From: Octopus vulgaris
Taxonomy: Eukaryota
NCBI GenBank assembly: GCA_951406725.2
Contig: CATOCA020000022.1
Coordinates: forward strand, 2,001 to 66,000
Reading direction: 5' to 3'
Length of the DNA stretch: 64,000 bases
Numbering within the stretch: position 1 is the first letter of the stretch; every line of letters begins with the position of its first letter. The notes under the pieces are model-generated. The model made no database searches. It had not been told where the DNA came from and saw nothing but the letters and a program-made list of their open reading frames with translations. The position numbers were made by a program, and so were the translations under genes. Shown in pieces: positions 37,340 to 49,392 of the stretch.

Positions 37340-40300
37340 TATACACATACCAAACTACTAAACACCCAATAACACCAACATGAAATATGTATCCTCTGAC
37401 AAAGTGGCAAATCAAATAGGTAACTCTTTTTTACTGTCTTACCTAGAAAATATGAAGGCCGACCTAAGCCAGGATATCCAACGAGCTATCAGCAACCACC
37501 TATGCAAATCACAAGGACCACACACCCACTACCAACAAGAAAATCATACACACACAGCTCCATATAAGAACTACCCACATTGTTACCACTGAACAACATA
37601 AAACACAACTTAGAACAAGGCAAACATCAAACTCCCCTTACCTCGACATTCCTGTTAAATGTACGTGGCATCAACCCATCAATTATTGCCCAAAAATGGA
37701 AGATCCCATATATAGAGAGTTGGCTTGCTGAAACGGCACATTGCTTCCCTTCCTTTATCCTTACTGAGACTCACATGAACAACACCCATATGGACGCCGA
37801 GGTGAAAATAAAAGATTTCACCATTGTTCGTGTGGATCGCACAGACCGAAATAAGGGAGAGACAGCCATCTTTATCCATGACTCCTTTTCACTTGATGCC
37901 AAAGACATATTTTCCAATGGCTATTGGGAATCGGTATCACTATTCAGCAAGGCCAAGGACTTAATCATTGTTGGTCTTTACAGGCCTCCCCAAGCACCTC
38001 TAAAGTGCTTTGAAGAGTGCCTTAGTAAAGTCAAGTCCTTCATTCGGAAGTACAACTCCGGAAACATACTAGTGATGGGTGATTTTAACCTCCCTTATGT
38101 GAACTGGCCCACAAATACTCTGAAGTTAGGCAAATGCTCTACATCAGATAGAGCAGCAGCAGAACTGCTCTTTAATCTAATGGATGAATACTTGCTGACT
38201 CAGCTAGTGCTCGAACCAACGAGACAGAATAAAACGATCTTGGATCTGGTATTGACCAATCACTCTAGCTTCGTTCACAGTATTTCAGTTGAAAAAACTA
38301 TCCTCTCAGACCACGACATGATACTCTGCAATTTCAATTCCCGACATATAAAAACCAAACCAGCCAATACCACTCCATGGCACTCATTTGACAACATAAA
38401 CTTCCACAAAGCGGACTGGGGAGCAACCAGAAAGGATCTGTCTTGCATCGACTTGTCTTTCACTCTCAATTCCATCCATACTGAGACCGCATGGCAGCAC
38501 TTTGAAAACATTGTCACCTATACATGCGCTAAACACGCTCCCATGAAATCTACTAACACAAACAGAAACTGGCTCCCTAAAAAGAAAAAAACACTCATCA
38601 GGCGCATCAAAAGACTCAACAAACAAAATCAACCAATTAAAATATTCCCACATACAACATCCAAATTCAACAACAATGAAAAGGCTAGAGCTGGAAAAAC
38701 TTCATCTACAGAACGACATGAAAACCTCCATTGAAAATCAAAGAGCTGTGGAGGAACAGTGGGTAATCAAAAACATCAAACAGAACCCAAAAGTGTTCTA
38801 TTCTTATGCAAATAAGCATAGAACCACTGTCTCACCCATTGGGCCATTGATTGATGATAACGGCATTCCCCAACACGATACTAAAGAAATGGCAGAAATA
38901 CTGCAGAAATAATATTGCTTTGTCTGATATTGACACAAGAGAAGCGACCGAAGTTGACCCTCAACATAAAATCTCAGACATAACCTTCACTGCCACTGAC
39001 ATCACAGCAGCAATAAATGAGATCAAATACTACTCTGCTGTAGGCCCTGATAGATTCCCTGCTAGTCTCCTGAAGGAATGTAGACACCAACTTGCAGTCC
39101 CTCTGACCAACCTCTGGAGAAATTCGTTAGACGCAGGTTATATACCGAAACAGTTTCTATCCCAGTCAGTCATCCCGGTTTTCAAACAGGGAAACAGATC
39201 CCTCGCACTCAACTATCGCCCAATCTCACTCACCTCCCACATCATCAAAGTGTTTGAAAGAGTGTTAAGATCAAGGATAGCTGACTTCCTGGAGACCCAC
39301 AAACTCCTAAATGCAAATCAGCATGGCTTTCGCTGAGGCAGGGACTGTCTAACACAGCTCTTACACCACATTGAAGATGTACTCAAAGCCTTGGGAACAG
39401 GTTCGAACTCTGATGTCATATATCTTGACTTCAGTAAAGCGTTCGACAGGGTAGACCATAATATCCTACTCTCAAAATTGGCAAATGTTGGAATCCGTGG
39501 AAAAGTTCTACACTAGATCAAGTATTTCCAGGCGAATATAACACAACATGTTGTAGTTGATGGAGTCCACTCAAGCCCAGCATAAGTCACCAGCGGTGTC
39601 CCCCAGGGGACTATTTTGGGTCTGCTACTCTTCATAATTTACATAAACGACCTTTCCAGTGTCGTACATTACTGCAAAGTGAAAATATTTGCTGATGACA
39701 CTAAGCTCCAGCAAATCGTCAATGAAGAAGCAGACCGAACTCAACTCCAGTCTGATCTATATGCTGTGAGTCAATGGGCACACAGAGACAAAATGCAACT
39801 GAACAAGGGAAAATTTGAGTTGATGCATTTTGGAAGAAATTCCTCACTAAAACAGCCTCTAACAAATCAGTGACCTGGGTGTAATTGTTGATGACGATCT
39901 CAGTTGGAGTGCACACATCAACAAGAAGGTCGATATAGCACGTAGGATGAGTTCCTGGATCTTAAGAACTTTCCGGTCCAGAGAACAAGGTGTCATCATA
40001 CCACTTTTCTCCTCCTTTGTACGGCCACACCTCGAATACTGCTGCCCACTGTGGTCTCTTCACACAAGACAAAACATCTCCAGAATTGAGTCACCCCAGA
40101 GGGCACTCACTAAACGAATTGAAGGCATGGCTGCTGTCGATTATTGGGATCGCCTTAAAGCCTTGAACCTTTACTCCCTCCAGCATCGCCGTGAGCGGTA
40201 CATCATTTGTACGATGTGGAAAATATACCGCCAACTAAGCCCAAACGACCTAAACATTAGCTTCAAGGTTCATCCAAGACTTGGACCACGGGCTATACGT

Positions 40301-40636
40301 CCCCTGCCCAATTCAAGATCACAACATACATGTACACTGCAACATAATTTCTTTTCCTCAACAGGCCCTGCCCTATTTAACATTGCCCCGAAAGAGATCA
40401 AAGAGGAACAGGATCCCATCAACTTTAAACGGAGTCTGGATAGATTCCTTCAAGGAATACCAGATAAGCCACCCATAATTGGATACAACTCACCCAACAA
40501 AAACTCACTACTTGAATGGACCATAAACAAAACTTGACTTAAACAGGATTCAAATAATCCTATCAGGTGGTGCTATTAAGTTAGACATGGCCTGGACCAA
40601 TCTTTGGTCGAAACATATCAAGGTTTATCTAAGTTT
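37340..40636 (+). mobile_element. CR1-like LINE, family A copy 2: probable ORF1 tail plus disrupted ORF2 (APE and RT)
   Basis: LNVRGI, LTETH, GLYRPP, MGDFNLP, LDLVLTN, SDH (APE); YLDFSKAFDRVDH, FADDTK (RT); highly similar to 7727-9391; frameshifts and stops. The 5' boundary is uncertain. Confidence 0.93.
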
Positions 40637-40847
40637 ATATACAAACATACAAACATGTATATACAAATCTATATACAAACATATATACAAATATATATAT
40701 ACAGACATATATATATACAAATATATATATACAAACATATATATATATATACAAACATATATACAAACACATATATACAAATATATATACAAACATATAT
40801 ACACAAATATATATACAAACATATACATACAAATATATATACAAACA

Positions 40848-41448
40848 TATGACCCTCTCCGTAACCTTCATTACCTGATCCAACAGCTTGATACCTCTGT
40901 ATTTATTTGTATCTAAAGCGTCACCTTTACCTTTGTAGCAGTTGACTATTATGCTGCTACACCAGTCATTGGGTATGACTCCTTCGTGTATCAACTGGTT
41001 AACTATACGGGTGACTAGGCTATAACCAACACTGCCAGATATTTTGAGCCTCTCTGCAGTAATTCCTGATGGACCTGGGGCTTTCCCTGTCTTCATACTT
41101 CTAATTATCTTATCTACCAAAGAACTGTCAACTCGGATAGCTGGTCCCTCAGTTGGGTCGACATTCGGCAGACTCTCTTTCTCCCATTCATTGTCTTTAT
41201 TCAGCAACCTTTCATAGTGGCGTCTCCAAACCTCTCTCTTTGCAGCCACATTTAGCGCAAGTGAACCATTATCCATGCGAACACATTTCTCTCCTACCAC
41301 ATCACGATTCTCTCTCACACACTGTCTTGCAACACGAAATATCTCAAGTCTTTTGTCCTCACAGCGCAGAACATTGGCAAATTTTTTCTTATCTGCTTCT
41401 CCTATGGCTAAATAAACCTGCCTCCTAGCTTCCCTTCTGGCAGTCTGA
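40848..41448 (-). mobile_element. RTE-like LINE, 5' portion (same family and orientation as 35320-36988)
   Basis: MKTGKAPGPSGITAE, IPNDWCSSIIVNCYKGKGDAL...YRGIKLLDQVMKVTERV. Confidence 0.88.
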
Positions 41449-42340
41449 CACACTTCACCCATATAGTTAATCAGGATATATAGAAAGGTATTATACCCAA
41501 TGACTGGCATAGCAGCATTGTAGTCAACTGTTATAGGAAGACAGACGTTAAATGATGTTGATATATTTTTTAGTATACATAACTGACTTCTACACGTCCT
41601 TCATGGATGATTCTATGATCCACAAAAACAGATGAATTATATCCAAAATGCTAATGTTGCTGCTACCAAAAGGTATTGAGGACTTGATGCTTTTTGTTTC
41701 AGTAGAGTTGCCCTTCCAACTATAATCATCCTTATTTCTTTTAAATCTCTGAATTATCACCATTATCCCATTGCATGACATTTTGAGTCTATTGGGTACC
41801 TGGAAAATGAATAAAACCAGTCGTGTGTATCTCTTATTATAAAAGGCAGATTTTATCTGCCTCCTTTGGGAGTTATACAAATCTACAATATAGGATTTCT
41901 TCAATTACAATTTACCTTGCATTTTTAAGAGTACAATGCATTGCGTCATGCCAGCTCCAGTTTTTAAAATTTAAACTCCAGTTAAGCAAAATTTACAGAA
42001 AACTCACATTCTGGTGTGTGTGTCAAATGCTTTTCTTAGTCTGGTTTACACCACACGCAAACGCACACACACAGTGGGCAACGAATAAAATGAAACTAAT
42101 TCACTTACTGTAGTGAGTGATTCTTTCACTCTGCCTCCCACTTCTTCTTTCCACACAGACACGCAAATATATAAATAAAATTGTAAGCTAACGTGCGTGT
42201 GTGTGAGTGGGTGGGTGTGGGTGTGCGCGTGTGTGTGTGTGTGTGAGGCGTGTGTGTGTGTGTGTGTGCGCGTGTGCGTGAGTGTGTGACAGGAAAGTTT
42301 TTTTACGACGAATATAATACCTATATCCAAGTAGCAGAAA

Positions 42341-42826
42341 GATAAGACAGTAAGGTGTGATTTGAGGGAGATTTGGCTGCTATTTCTACCATGTCTAGCT
42401 GCTATGTAGGGGTCTCCCTCATAGGCTCATACATACATATATATATACATAGATAAGACAGTAAGGTGTGATTTGGGGGAAATTTGGCTGCTATTTCTAC
42501 CAGGTCTAGCTGCCATGTAGGGGTCTCCCTCATAGGCTCATACATACATATATACATAGATAAGACAGTAAGGTGTGATTTGGGGGAAATTTGGCTGCTA
42601 TTTCTACCAGGTCTAGCTGCCATGTAGGGGTCTCCCTCATAGGCTCATACATACATATATACATAGATAAGACAGTAAGGTGTGATTTGGGGGAAATTTG
42701 GCTGCTATTTCTACCAGGTCTAGCTACCATGTAGAGGTCCCCCTCATTGGCTCATATATATATATACATACATAAGACAGTAAGGTGTGATTTGAGGGAG
42801 ATTTGGCTGCTGTTTCTACCAGGTCT
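42341..42826 (+). repeat. ~107-bp tandem repeat, ~4.5 copies
   Basis: gataagacagtaaggtgtgatttg at ~42341, 42452, 42559, 42666, 42772. Confidence 0.92.
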
Positions 42827-43191
42827 GTTAGGCCTTCTCATGTAAACTCAAGCTTTCTCATGCCTTCAACATATGACCAAAGCAGAGAATGTATTCTTTT
42901 ATTCTTCTGCTTTTTCCAGCCATTGGTCTGTGGCCATGCTGGGGCAATGCCTTGAAGAATTGTAGTTTAATGAATCAACTCCAGTTTTATTTTTGTAAGC
43001 ATTGTACTTATTCTATCTGTTTCCTTTGTCAAACCACTAGGTGACAGGGATGTAAACAAACCAACATTCGTTGTCAAGCAGTGGTGGAGGACAATCACAA
43101 GCACAGACACGCACACACACACACACACACACACATACATGCATACACATATACACACATACATACATATATATATATGTGTATATATATA

Positions 43192-43450
43192 TTGCAGCGT
43201 GGAAGGTGTTTGTAAGCCATTTAAGAAACACACAAAAACCGTTACATTCACTTCAACATTTAAATTTAATTTGCCAAAATATTTTCGTCGCTTTGAGACC
43301 GCCACCTGTTCACTGACAAAAATATCGTGCTAACAGGTCGCGGTCTCAAAGCGACGAAAATATTTTGACAAATTAAATTTAAATGTTGAAGTGAATCTAA
43401 CGGTTTTTGTGTGTTTCTTAAATGGCTTATAAACACCTTCAACGCTGCAA
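43192..43450. repeat. Long inverted repeat (119-bp arms, 21-bp spacer), Penelope pLTR-like
   Basis: 43192-43310 is the reverse complement of 43332-43450 with ~5 mismatches. Confidence 0.92.
43270..43320 (-). ncRNA. Candidate minimal type-I hammerhead ribozyme, G3-C8 core variant
   Basis: TTTGTCA-GTGAACA-G-GT(G/C)GC-ggtctcaaa-GCGAC-GAAA-ATAT-T-T-TG(G/A)CAAA: stem I, core, stem II, GAAA, palindromic tetranucleotide in place of stem III, UH site. Confidence 0.6.
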
Positions 43451-43522
43451 CTGTTTTCGTTCCAGCACACGATCTCAGATCAAGTCACTTGCTATGCAAG
43501 TACATCTCTGTAACTATATATA

Positions 43523-43559
<37 letters not shown>

Positions 43560-43622
43560 TGGTAAAAACAGTAAGATAACAAAAGAAAGAAAGAGACCTC
43601 AATATTATGTAAATAGAGGAAA

Positions 43623-44017
43623 TCTTTATAGATAAAAGTGAGGTTGTGTGTCTGTCTCCTACGATTTAGATTCCTAACTACTCCCACATTTTGCGGTGCA
43701 GTTTAACCAAAACCGGGTATCTTATAGTCGTGATTCATATCGAGACCGTCTGGGTATTAGCGCGCGTCTACGATGAGTCTACGATTTATAAAAAAATTTA
43801 CCATCAATTTTTCCAATTTTTAATACATTTTTGACATATATAAGGGAAGTAACTCTCTAAAATTTATTATTAAATCTCAGAACGTAAAAAGCTACAGTAA
43901 CACCCCTCCCCCTTTGTGGTTAGCCATATTGAGATGGCTATTATACTTTACATCTCTAAAAATGCTTATATAATTATTTCCCTTACAAACCCGAGCAACG
44001 CCGGGCGATACTGCTAG
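43623..44017 (+). mobile_element. Complete non-autonomous Helitron
   Basis: A|TC 5' end; GC hairpin cccgagcaacgccggg ~9 nt before CTAG|T; no TSD. Confidence 0.85.
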
Positions 44018-44030
44018 TGTGTATATATAT

Positions 44031-44338
44031 GAGTGGCTGTGTGGTAAGTAGCTTGCTTACGAACCACATGGTTCCGGGTTCTATCCCAATGCATGGCACC
44101 TTGGGCAAGTGTCTTCTACTATAGCCTTGTGAGTGGATTTGGTAGACGGAAACTGAAGGAAGCCCGCCATGTGTATATATATATATTTGAGAGTTTGTGT
44201 ATGTATATGTTCGTCCCCACCAACATCGCTTGGCAACCGATGCTGTGTTTACTGCAAAAGAGACCGATAGAATAAGTACTAGGCTTACAAAGAATACGTC
44301 CTGGGGTCGATTTGCTTGACCAAAGTCGGTGCTCCATC
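44031..44338 (+). mobile_element. tRNA-headed SINE, internally deleted
   Basis: gagtggctgtgtggtaagtagc...ggttccgggttc...cttgggcaagtg head and core. Confidence 0.85.
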
Positions 44339-44635
44339 AAAAAAAGAGAAAAACACGTTTTCACTCTCTAAATATCGACTTCTTTCATAAACAACCAAGT
44401 TGATTTGTTATTGGGCTCCTAGACTGAACAATTGCATGATCTTGTATGGATCTGAGAGTAATTTGACTGCTATTTCTAGCCACCCCAAGTTAGCCTTGTT
44501 AATCATGTGAACGTCTAAAGAACTGAAAGTTATTTTAACAGTTGACAAACCAAATTCTAGTCAAGAACTCGTTTAAAAATTGCTGAGCCTTAACAGAAAC
44601 CATTAACATTTGAAGTAATAGACTTATTTTTAAAG

Positions 44636-44666
<31 letters not shown>

Positions 44667-44816
44667 TGTGTGTGTCTGTTTGTCCCCAAACATTGCTACA
44701 CAACGGATGTTAGTCTGTTTACGTCCCCATAACTTAGAGGTTCAGCGAAAGAGATTGATAGAATAAGTACTAGGCCTACAAAGAATAAGTCCTGGGGTCG
44801 ATATGCTCGACTGAAG

Positions 44817-44875
<59 letters not shown>

Positions 44876-46059
44876 CTGGAGCGCCGCCTTTAGTCGAGCA
44901 CATCATACACAGCACTTCTTTGTAAGCCTAGTATTTATTCTAACTTGTTCTCTTTTGCCGAACCGCTAAAATACAGGGAGTAAAACACACCTCTATCGGT
45001 TAAAAGCATCAACAACTACAGTCAATCGAAGATAATGACCAAACTGTCTACCAATTCAGACACTCAAACACGCGGACAAACACAGAAATGAAGACAGTTA
45101 CATACCTGCACATGCACAAACACACAGACATACACATATAGAAATGAAAAATACACACTTACACATTCAAACTCTCACACTCACACAAACACACACACAC
45201 ACGCACCCACACACAGAAATGAAAACACAGTTACACAATCACACATAAAACCCTAACCCTAACTAGCACAAACATACAATTTATTCAGAATGTAAAGGGG
45301 CATTGGGTGCTTTGCACTCGCAGTTAGAATATCAGCTCCCTCCACGCCAGTATGAGAATTTCTTTCATCCACTTGTGAAATTAATACATTGTCGACACAT
45401 GACAAAAATATGAGCAACATCTGAAGTCACTAAAGGTGCAATAAATTGAACTTATTTTGATTTAGTAGTTAGTGATCTCAAATGTGGGTATCTTAGCAAT
45501 GGTCAGTGTCGCACACACACAAGCAAATAGAAACACTCAGTCGCTCACACACTCGCGCACACAGAAATAAAAACACTCTCTCTCACACACACACACACAC
45601 ACACAAACACTGAAATGAAAATACCCACACTCACATAAATAAAAACAGTCCCACACTCACAAGGAGCCCCAATAGGTATATAAAAAAAGTTTCTAGTATC
45701 TTTCCTAGCCCATAATTTATGATAATTGTAGTTCTAACAATAAATAAATACCTACTAATTCAGTACATCGAACATTACGTCCCCGTAAATTATCGGTTCT
45801 GCAAAAGAGAACAATACGTTAAGTACTAGGAATACAAAAATAAGTCCTGGGGTCTATTTGCTCGACTAAATGCGGTACACCACAATTTAATAACAATAAT
45901 ATAATTATATGCAAGGTAAGTAAATCTATATGATATTTTGTAGTTATCTCACTAACTTACGGTGACGTAAACACATCAGAATCGGTTGTCAAGCAATTTT
46001 GAGGACAAAAACGCAGACAGAAACATAGACACACACATACATATGTGTGTGCGTGTGTG

Positions 46060-47379
<1,320 letters not shown>

Positions 47380-47394
47380 TATACATCATATATA

Positions 47395-49392
47395 TTCATC
47401 AGTCCCATGAAAAGGAGAGAGCAGATAAAGAAGCTTGGGTAATAGAAAATAGAAAATCAAACCCTAAAGCTTTCTTTAAGTTTGCCAAAGAGACAGCCAC
47501 AGTGCACCAGAGAATAGGACCTCTCTTCCAAAAAGATGGCTCTCTCACAGGAAATCCCACGAGGATAAGTGAAATACTGAACGAACAGTTCCAAAGTGTG
47601 TTCACTACACCTCTAGGACACAGGCAAGTAAACAACCCAGAAGAATTCTTTGCCACTTTACCAGCGGCCAAAGAGACAAAAATTGAGTACATCAACATCG
47701 AAGAAGATGATATCACACTAGCCATTGATGAGATTGACACAAACTCAGCTGCTGGACCTGATGGATTCCCAGCGATCCTTCTCAAATCGTGCAAACGAGC
47801 CCTTGCAAAACCACTACAGCTTCTTTTTCAGAGCTTTCTTGCAAGTGGTAAGCTCCCAGTCAAACTGAAAGAGGGGGTAATATGCCCTATCCATAAGGGA
47901 GGTAGCAGAGCAGATGCTAAAAATTATAGGCCTATCTCTCTGACCTCACACATCAGCAAAGTCATGGAACGAATAGTCCGTAAGAAACTAATCATGTTCC
48001 TTGAAGAAAATGACTTACTGTCTGACACCCAGCATGGATTTCGACCAGGTAGAGGCTGCCTAACACAGCTCCTGCAACACTATGACTGGGTGTTGAAACA
48101 GCTACTAAATGGCTCAAATGTGGATGTAATATATCTTGACTTTGCAAAAGCCTTTGATAAAGTCGACCATAATATGATCTGTCACAAACTGCGTGGTCTC
48201 GGCATAGGCGGGAAACTTGGAGAGTGGCTGCACAACTTCCTAAAAGACAGAAAACAGGCAGTTGTGAGCAATGGAGCCACCTCCAGGGAAACGCAAATAA
48301 CAAGCGGTGTCCCACAGGGCACTGTCTTGGGGCCACTGATGTTCATAGTGGCCCTTTCAGACATGCCTTCAGTTGCTACGATGACCACCCTTGCTAGCTA
48401 TGCAGATGACACAAAAGTCTCCCACGCAATACAAAACCCTGAAAATATTGCGCATCTGCAACATGAGCTGGACACAATATACAGGTGGGCTGAGGACAAC
48501 AACATGCAGTTTAATGCAGGTAAGTTCCAGGCCCTGCGCTACTGGCACACAAAGGTAAATGACGTGCATACTGGATACACTGGCCCAGGAAGAATTGCAA
48601 TCCCTGAGTCAAAATCAGTGCGTGACCTGGGCATTGACATGAGCAATGATGCATCTTTCCAAATGCATATTGCTAATCTGGTGATAAAATGCAGACGGCT
48701 AGCTGGATGGATTCTCCGAACTTTCAGAACAAGAGAGAAGGAGACACTGATGGTCCTATGGAAAACATTTGTCCTCAGCCGCTTGGACTACTGCTCCCAA
48801 CTTTGGTCACCACACAATATAAAACAAACAGCAGAACTCGAAGCAACTCAGAGAAGCTACACAAAGAAAATCGTCTCAATGCGAAATGTCAGCTACTGGG
48901 AAAGACTGAAGGTATTAAACCTCTTCTCCCTGGAGCGGAGGCAGGAGAGATATGCAGTGATATACATCTGGAAAATCCTGGAGGGTCTTGTCCCAAACTT
49001 TGGCATTCAAAGTTACTCCAACCGCAGAACGGGGGGCCGCTGCGTGGTGCCAAGGATTCCAACATCACCATCAAAATACAGGTCCAGATACTGCAACAGC
49101 TTGGGTTTCAGAGGACCACAGCTCTTTAACATCCTCCCTAAATGCCTGAGAGACTTACATGGTGTGGATGTGGGTTTCTTTAAAACTAAACTGGATCTCT
49201 TCTTGTTGGGAGTCCCAGATGAACCTACCTCACGACAGGAGACACGGATGCGGGCAGCAGCATCGAACTCCCTTGTTGATCAAGTGCCACGTATCAGAGG
49301 TGGATTCACAAACTAGTGTAGCTCATTCAGCGGTGGTGCCCCAGCATGGCCGCGGCCTTCGGGCTAAAACATTTTTAAGGATTTAAGGATTT
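47395..49392 (+). mobile_element. 5'-truncated CR1-like LINE, family B, with uninterrupted RT reading frame
   Basis: Open frame to stop at 49316: [65 protein letters not shown]; tail (TTTAAGGA)n. Confidence 0.95.

What the first reader, a model, noticed from the sequence alone, without database searches (positions are those of the whole stretch)
43192..43450. Palindromic pLTR-like element carrying a G3-C8 variant minimal hammerhead ribozyme
Seen, minus strand 43320-43270: stem I UUUGUCA/UGGCAAA; core GUGAACA instead of CUGANGA; one extra G; stem II GU(G)GC/GCGAC; GAAA; palindromic AUAU; U-U. The opposite arm supplies the perfectly pairing alleles (GUCGC, UGACAAA) but has a broken core. Known: C3-G8 is a tertiary Watson-Crick pair and the G3-C8 swap preserves it. 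Penelope pLTRs carry minimal hammerheads with a palindromic tetraloop instead of stem III, thought to act as dimers, and occur in inverted arrangements. Inference: a Penelope- or retrozyme-type family using a rare core variant that standard CUGANGA searches would miss. This copy may be inactive.
Basis: partly seen in the sequence, partly recalled or inferred. Interest (0 to 1): 0.75.

Follow-up and report, generated by a model that had tools for sequence, protein, structure and literature searches.

The report
Swapped-core hammerhead in Penelope end
This mirror-image stretch is two end-pieces of a Penelope-type jumping gene, carried inside a second mobile element and copied hundreds of times; the family's hammerhead-shaped RNA motif has two paired core letters swapped and likely still cuts weakly in full-length elements, but this copy is predicted to be unable to fold and cut.

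Summary
Confirmed and extended. The palindrome is two pseudo-LTR pieces of a Penelope-like element (PLE) joined head to head, one with the short and one with the long 3' end. The hammerhead-shaped motif reads as described. Its G3-C8 core is the family norm: 1,360 exact pattern hits, G3 in 99 and C8 in 96 of 100 listed. The same motif sits before the start codon and behind the RT/GIY-YIG frame of autonomous copies. A sister PLE has C3-G8 at the same site with compensated stems; other families here use U3-A8 and A3-U8. The 'broken' arm is truncated inside the core. This copy rides in a 2.2-kb non-autonomous Helitron (624 exact junction copies), has a stem II mismatch, and is predicted to be buried in a long hairpin. 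Cleavage is untested. Natural G3-C8 was not in the papers I could read, but the likeliest paper (Lunse et al.) was not held. The scan noted this swapped core before, twice in this genome and three times in others. New variant of a known kind.

The parts
41830..44017 (+). Host element: 2,188-base non-autonomous Helitron (5' TC, 3' hairpin + CTAG, inserted between A and T)
   Evidence: 5' end found in 31 of 39 loci, all after A; 3' end in 38 of 39, all before T; longest stop-free frame 126 codons
43990..44017 (+). Helitron 3' terminal GC-rich hairpin and CTAG end
43192..43331 (-). PLE pseudo-LTR piece A (positions about 6-145 of the 207-base unit), holds the whole hammerhead motif, ends at the short 3' end
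43270..43320 (-). Minimal type I hammerhead motif; predicted cut between 43277 and 43276; one G-G mismatch in stem II in this sub-lineage
43307..43313 (-). Core GUGAACA with G3 (43313) and C8 (43308)
43332..43513 (+). PLE pseudo-LTR piece B (unit positions 26-207), 5'-truncated inside the core, ends at the long 3' end
43422..43513 (+). First 30 codons of the PLE reading frame (MAYKHL...), continued in full-length copies into the RT/GIY-YIG frame
43451..43513 (+). 63-base 'tail' present on one arm only
   Evidence: concept from PMC8557442 and PMC11167929
43166..43191 (.). (TA)-rich target, left side
43515..43553 (.). (TA)n target, right side

Best explanation
The palindrome is a head-to-head pair of Penelope-like pseudo-LTR pieces whose family carries a minimal hammerhead motif with a G3-C8 core; the family ribozyme likely cleaves weakly, as a dimer or with help from the element's protein, while this Helitron-borne copy is predicted to be inert. 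How it arose (inferred): the PLE endonuclease nicked both strands of a (TA)n tract; its reverse transcriptase primed on uncleaved element RNA at two internal sites about 60 bases apart in the start of the reading frame; the two cDNAs were joined where they ended, giving one short and one tailed arm. That insertion came to lie in a non-autonomous Helitron and was then multiplied at the DNA level, which needs no ribozyme. How the ribozyme works in the family (inferred): G3 pairs with C8 in place of C3-G8, keeping the 2'-OH of position 8 in place; the AAUAUU palindrome pairs with a second copy to form stem III.
For: Shown: motif before the ATG and behind the RT/GIY-YIG frame in L151-L154, L170, L177. 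Core fixed: 84 of 100 listed hits have the exact core, G3 99, C8 96, none C3; in 26 copies picked by an upstream pattern, G3 24, C8 22, differences 8 of 182 in the core against 59 of 234 in loop II. Sister PLE (54% identity over RT-EN): C3-G8 at the homologous site, stem II G-C to A-U and stem I U-A to C-G. With positions 3 and 8 left free, 8 of 9 motif families (my grouping) have a Watson-Crick 3-8 pair; an A3-U8 family adds the fourth. 3' ends: 56 of 133 at unit 140-159 and 63 at 200-207; 33 of 39 head-to-head pairs have one of each. Helitron ends and 624 identical junctions. Computed: stems I and II pair with probability 0.93-1.0 in an autonomous copy, about 0.5 in this copy alone, 0.0 within the palindrome. 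Literature: C3G/G8C partly restores cleavage of a PLE hammerhead that is protein-assisted and primes at two internal sites on both strands (PMC11167929).
Against: No cleavage was measured. Copies are not clearly enriched for 5' ends at the predicted cut (counted by eye), and most short copies contain the uncut motif. The sister family has C at position 9 and one related copy has C3-A8, so core constraint in this clade may be relaxed. The extra nucleotide is G, outside the H consensus of PMC4209133. The palindrome can extend to 10 bases and compete with stem I; unconstrained cofolding of two copies did not give the stem III dimer. Core conservation among copies mostly reflects a few master lineages, and a free copy of the older subfamily (L039) folded the stems only about 0.2 of the time in 150-base context. 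No copy with an unbroken frame from the ATG to the end was found among those examined.
Confidence: 0.8

Rival explanations
1. Same element, but the motif is a catalytically dead relic kept as a structure (protein-binding or priming signal), with the 3-8 pair conserved for folding only.
For: Hammerhead mutants did not affect insertion in vitro and no reads ended at the cut site in Anolis (PMC11167929); A9C in the sister family; no clear excess of copies starting at the cut; no start or end pile-ups in RNA reads (fragmented libraries, weak test).
Against: G5, A6, A9, G12, A13, A14, A15.1-U16.1 and a non-G at 17 are all kept, and the 3-8 pair, a tertiary pair of the active fold, is compensated across families.
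Confidence: 0.3
2. The unit is an independent retrozyme or SINE that spreads through circular RNA.
Against: The unit is contiguous on both sides with the PLE (3' untranslated region upstream, reading frame downstream); no tandem monomers at this locus.
Confidence: 0.07
3. The palindrome is a MITE or fold-back DNA transposon and the hammerhead likeness is chance.
For: 119-base inverted arms, many near-identical copies.
Against: Arms are unequal, junctions differ between free copies, the copied unit is the whole Helitron, and the motif covaries with a sister PLE.
Confidence: 0.02

Closest known systems
Minimal type I hammerheads in PLE pseudo-LTRs (Cervera and de la Pena 2014, PMC4209133; read parts 1-2 of 4 of the text and parts 1-2 of 3 of the supplement)
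   Same: Location in pLTR, type I layout, extra nucleotide between 9 and 10.1, G10.1-C11.1, palindrome in place of stem III, opposite-strand pairs of motifs.
   Different: Their listed motifs have C3-G8 or U3-A8 only; here G3-C8, with G as the extra nucleotide.
Poseidon element of Anolis carolinensis, PAc (Frangieh et al. 2024, PMC11167929; read parts 1-2 of 4)
   Same: Hammerhead at the pLTR/frame boundary, two internal priming sites that make the tail, AT-rich targets, both strands extended; engineered C3G/G8C partly active.
   Different: PAc is naturally C3-G8 with a 30-40-base tail; here the swap is natural, the motif lies about 85 bases before the ATG and the tail is about 60 bases.
Natural hammerhead core variants (Perreault et al. 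2011, PMC3088659; read section 8 and passages)
   Same: Natural covariation of the 3-8 pair.
   Different: Only U3-A8 is named there.
C-terminal-endonuclease PLE clades Hydra, Neptune, Nematis (Craig et al. 2021, PMC8557442; passages)
   Same: Single RT + C-terminal GIY-YIG frame, cysteine linker, (TA)n targets, inverted 5'-truncated copies, one-sided tail.
   Different: Clade not settled: RW and DKS motifs recall Hydra (RWK, DKT), the C-x3-C-x2-C linker fits Neptune/Nematis; no tree was built.
Non-autonomous Helitrons (defining ends recalled, not from a call)
   Same: 5' TC, 3' hairpin + CTAG, A|T insertion, head-to-tail tandems, captured pieces.
   Different: The cargo here includes a PLE palindrome; the mobilising RepHel element was not sought.

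Membership tests
Penelope-like element (EN+) | One frame with RT and C-terminal GIY-YIG endonuclease linked to the repeat | tested here: met
   L151: 1,025-residue frame, PF01541 E=1.8e-5 over cut-off; RT read by eye from motifs (YVDD); Pfam gave no RT hit and PDB no match
Penelope-like element (EN+) | Pseudo-LTRs in partial tandem or inverted arrangement | tested here: met
   L151, L153, L154, L170, L129, L130
Penelope-like element (EN+) | One-sided tail from two priming sites | tested here: met
   33 of 39 head-to-head pairs are short + long
Penelope-like element (EN+) | RT groups with PLE/telomerase RTs; clade | not tested
   No tree built; motifs mixed
Minimal type I hammerhead of PLEs | Stems I and II, G10.1-C11.1 | tested here: met
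   one stem II mismatch in this copy
Minimal type I hammerhead of PLEs | Literal CUGANGA core | tested here: not met
   Core is GUGAACA
Minimal type I hammerhead of PLEs | Watson-Crick pair 3-8 and U4, G5, A6, A9, G12, A13, A14, A15.1-U16.1, H17 | tested here: met
   (26 copies); covariation
Minimal type I hammerhead of PLEs | Palindrome in place of stem III allowing a dimer | tested here: inconclusive
   Palindrome present; unconstrained cofolding gave another dimer
Minimal type I hammerhead of PLEs | Self-cleavage after position 17 | not testable with these tools
   Indirect tests inconclusive
Non-LTR retrozyme | Tandem monomers each with a hammerhead, no coding link | tested here: not met
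   Head-to-head pair, contiguous with a PLE frame in full copies; definition from bioRxiv 10.64898/2026.07.22.740005, part 1 of 5
Non-autonomous Helitron (host) | 5' TC, 3' hairpin + CTRR, A|T insertion | tested here: met
   31 of 31 found 5' ends after A, 38 of 38 found 3' ends before T, 39 loci examined
Non-autonomous Helitron (host) | Autonomous RepHel partner with shared ends | not tested
   No search made

The most novel reading that the evidence does not exclude
The G3-C8 core is an active natural hammerhead, and the Penelope-type elements of this one genome use all four Watson-Crick pairs at positions 3-8 (C-G, U-A, G-C, A-U), so the pair and not its identity is what selection keeps, and CUGANGA-based surveys miss whole high-copy ribozyme families; G3-C8 and A3-U8 are unreported in nature.
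Probability: 0.4. Interest if true: 0.62.

Novelty: new variant of a known kind. Interest (0 to 1): 0.45.

Why it matters
It is natural, compensated evidence for the 3-8 tertiary pair of the hammerhead, known so far mainly from engineered double mutants and U3-A8 variants, and it gives a ready test set: sister elements with C-G and G-C at the same site. It also says descriptor searches should allow any 3-8 pair. The gain is moderate: PLE hammerheads, inverted copies, tails and the tolerance of the swap are published, the function of these ribozymes stays open, and this particular copy is most likely inert cargo.

Tried and rejected
Rfam at E<=10 over 38000-48000 gave 86 matches, none a hammerhead family and none at a gathering score. 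The GIY-YIG family search found intact 781-residue PLE frames, but those examined (30 loci) carry a U3-A8 or A3-U8 motif, not this unit. PDB sequence search: 0 matches at E<=1. Test for copies starting at the predicted cut: of 100 listed of 171 hits, by eye 15 join exactly at the cut (3 through 7-base microhomology with the stem I complement), 0 at -1, 12 at -2, 7 at -3, 7 at -4; a control window ten bases downstream showed about 35 truncations in 100 listed of 152; no clear excess, inconclusive. Sequencing runs: no RNA holder listed. Raw RNA reads of a related organism covered the unit about equally in both orientations, with no start/end pile-ups and no splice joints; depth up to 344 on the unit against at most 6 on the frame: passenger transcription, nothing on cleavage. 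The sharp 5' start of short copies follows a stretch that looks like a 3' splice site (611 exact hits) but could equally be a transcription start; not resolved. Papers not held: Lunse et al. on small PLE hammerhead variants and two ids recalled for Przybilski and Hammann 2007 and Hammann et al. 2012. Rejected: MITE, chance likeness, private decay of the alleles, retrozyme at this locus.

Full report
Observation. The inverted arms 43192-43310 and 43332-43450 differ at 5 of 119 positions; the right arm continues 63 bases to 43513; both ends lie in (TA)-rich tracts. The window holds no second copy. Rfam gave no hammerhead match.

The copy is cargo. A DNA search with the centre gave 832 candidates, 40 scored, 24 identical over 81 bases and 16 at 99%. 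In the 30 loci fetched, identity extends over about 2.2 kb. The repeat runs 41830-44017, starts TC and ends in a GC hairpin and CTAG; over 39 loci the 5' end was found in 31, always after A, the 3' end in 38, always before T; two loci show head-to-tail copies. These are Helitron marks (recalled). Eight of the 39 loci also share the window's flanks, so they are segmental copies, not separate insertions. The palindrome's junction occurs 624 times exactly. So one PLE insertion was multiplied at the DNA level; the stem II mismatch belongs to a sub-lineage of these copies.

The family. A pattern with the eight core positions free hits 1,360 places, 0 for the reversed control; of the 100 listed, 84 have the exact core, 99 G3, 96 C8, none C3 (counted by eye). 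Of 30 loci fetched, 9 lay in the Helitron and 21 were free. Free copies are a 207-base unit with a sharp 5' start about 15 bases before stem I and mostly perfect stems. In an independent set picked by an upstream pattern (26 of 30 loci; 4 dropped because the alignment did not span the motif) G3 is in 24 and C8 in 22; differences from the column majority are 8 of 182 in the core, 6 of 260 from G12 to N17, 26 of 260 in stem II, 59 of 234 in loop II and about 7% in flanks. These copies descend from few masters, so this shows that masters changed loop II but not the core; it is not 26 independent observations. Reads of organism B have C8 in 549 of 592 and 409 of 458, and loose-end consensus lines from contigs of organisms D and E show the same core: the swap predates several species splits.

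Link to a Penelope-like element. Upstream of the unit, L129 and L130 hold a 3' untranslated region and an RT + GIY-YIG frame in inverted pairs. The RT search returned many copies at 92-97% and a 1,025-residue open frame; L151-L154 and L170 carry the G3-C8 motif, with a different loop II, in their terminal repeats; PF01541 passes its cut-off. The unit's last 92 bases are the start of the frame: window 43422-43513 translates openly, and in L177 the motif is followed by that start and continues into the sequence that opens the L151 frame. No copy examined was open from start to end. Clade is unsettled.

Covariation. A sister PLE with 1,312-residue frames (54% identical over RT-EN, alignable N-terminus) has at the same place a motif with C3-G8, the same extra G, stem II G-C to A-U and stem I U-A to C-G, but C at position 9. 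With positions 3, 8 and 9 free, a descriptor run over 785,726 bases of held loci found nine motif families by my grouping: four U-A, three C-G, this G-C family, and one single copy with C-A; shuffles gave 0.67 hits per replicate. A further family behind a GIY-YIG frame has A3-U8 with a very short stem II: 155 exact hits, A3 in 99 and U8 in 100 of 100 listed. All four pairs therefore occur in this genome; adjacency to a PLE frame was shown for four families (this one, the sister, the 781-residue family, L081).

How the palindrome formed. Of 133 distinct unit segments outside the Helitron (loci fetched for 3' extension left out), 56 end at unit 140-159 and 63 at 200-207; of 39 head-to-head pairs 33 have one short and one long end. 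The window copy fits: left arm short, right arm long, joined at 43331|43332 with the right arm cut inside the core. Frangieh et al. found that a PLE protein nicks and extends both strands and primes at two internal sites in the start of the frame, and that the stretch between is the tail (PMC11167929, parts 1-2). Priming from both target strands at the two sites, then joining of the cDNAs, is my inference from this. Priming at these sites and running to the RNA's 5' end would also explain the many solo 207-base copies; whether that end is a transcription start or a splice site is open.

Activity. Computed pairing of stems I and II is 0.93-1.0 for an autonomous copy, about 0.5 for this copy alone, about 0.2 for one free copy in 150-base context, and 0.0 inside the palindrome, also when only the part made before and through the motif is folded. 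The plus strand lacks G3-U4-G5. This copy is therefore predicted inert. For the family, published C3G/G8C double mutants are partly active (PMC11167929; PMC8495972, passage; a G3-C8 variant is mentioned as data not shown in PMC3884650, passage), and metazoan PLE hammerheads cleave weakly and as dimers (PMC4209133; PMC6765202, passages). My indirect tests for cleavage were inconclusive. I put cleavage by the family motif at about 0.6.

Novelty. The extra nucleotide, the palindrome and opposite-strand pairs are published PLE features. Natural 3-8 covariation was given as U3-A8 only in PMC4209133 and PMC3088659. Searches showed no report of natural G3-C8 in their listings; passages of PMC6155905, PMC10085705 and PMC13282606 had none. 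The paper most likely to hold it, Lunse et al., and its alignments were not available, so absence from print is not established. The scan itself noted a swapped core before: two notes in this genome, three in others, and the short/long-end rule in two notes; I read these after reaching my own reading and count them as no support. That the genome is an octopus is my inference from recalled SINE sequence, genome size and one scan note, not a tool result. Verdict: real, well explained, a new variant of a known kind; interest 0.45.

Noticed in passing
L081 (G000:C4:866857 and 868557) and 155 exact hits: PLE-linked hammerhead motif with A3-U8 core and a 2-pair stem II, often in inverted pairs.
   Followed up: partly
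L155-L160: Young sister PLE family with intact 1,312-residue frames, a long Asn-rich insert and a C3-G8 motif with C at position 9.
   Followed up: partly
L067, L072 and related: Young PLE family with many intact 781-residue frames and a U3-A8 motif.
   Followed up: partly
L051 about 2740-2790, minus strand: Single copy of a third related pLTR with core C3-A8 and C9.
   Followed up: no
Upstream of the unit in L095-L124: Branch-point, pyrimidine tract and AG-like stretch right at the sharp 5' start of short copies; 611 exact hits.
   Followed up: partly
L091-L094, L171-L200: A few copies run about 90 bases past the long end and stop at a similar place, perhaps a third priming site.
   Followed up: partly
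window 42321-42871: Four to five tandem copies of a 107-base unit inside the Helitron; copy number varies between Helitron copies.
   Followed up: no
window 1-3470: Telomeric (TTAGGG)n array with variant blocks; the window is a chromosome end, and its Helitron neighbourhood is segmentally duplicated on other contigs.
   Followed up: no
window 38000-40570 and 47400-49000: Decayed CR1-type LINE reverse-transcriptase stretches, read by eye.
   Followed up: no
L125, L127: The unit lies in larger tandem repeats of 3.4 and 2.6 kb without a PLE frame; in L125 C8 is changed to A.
   Followed up: no
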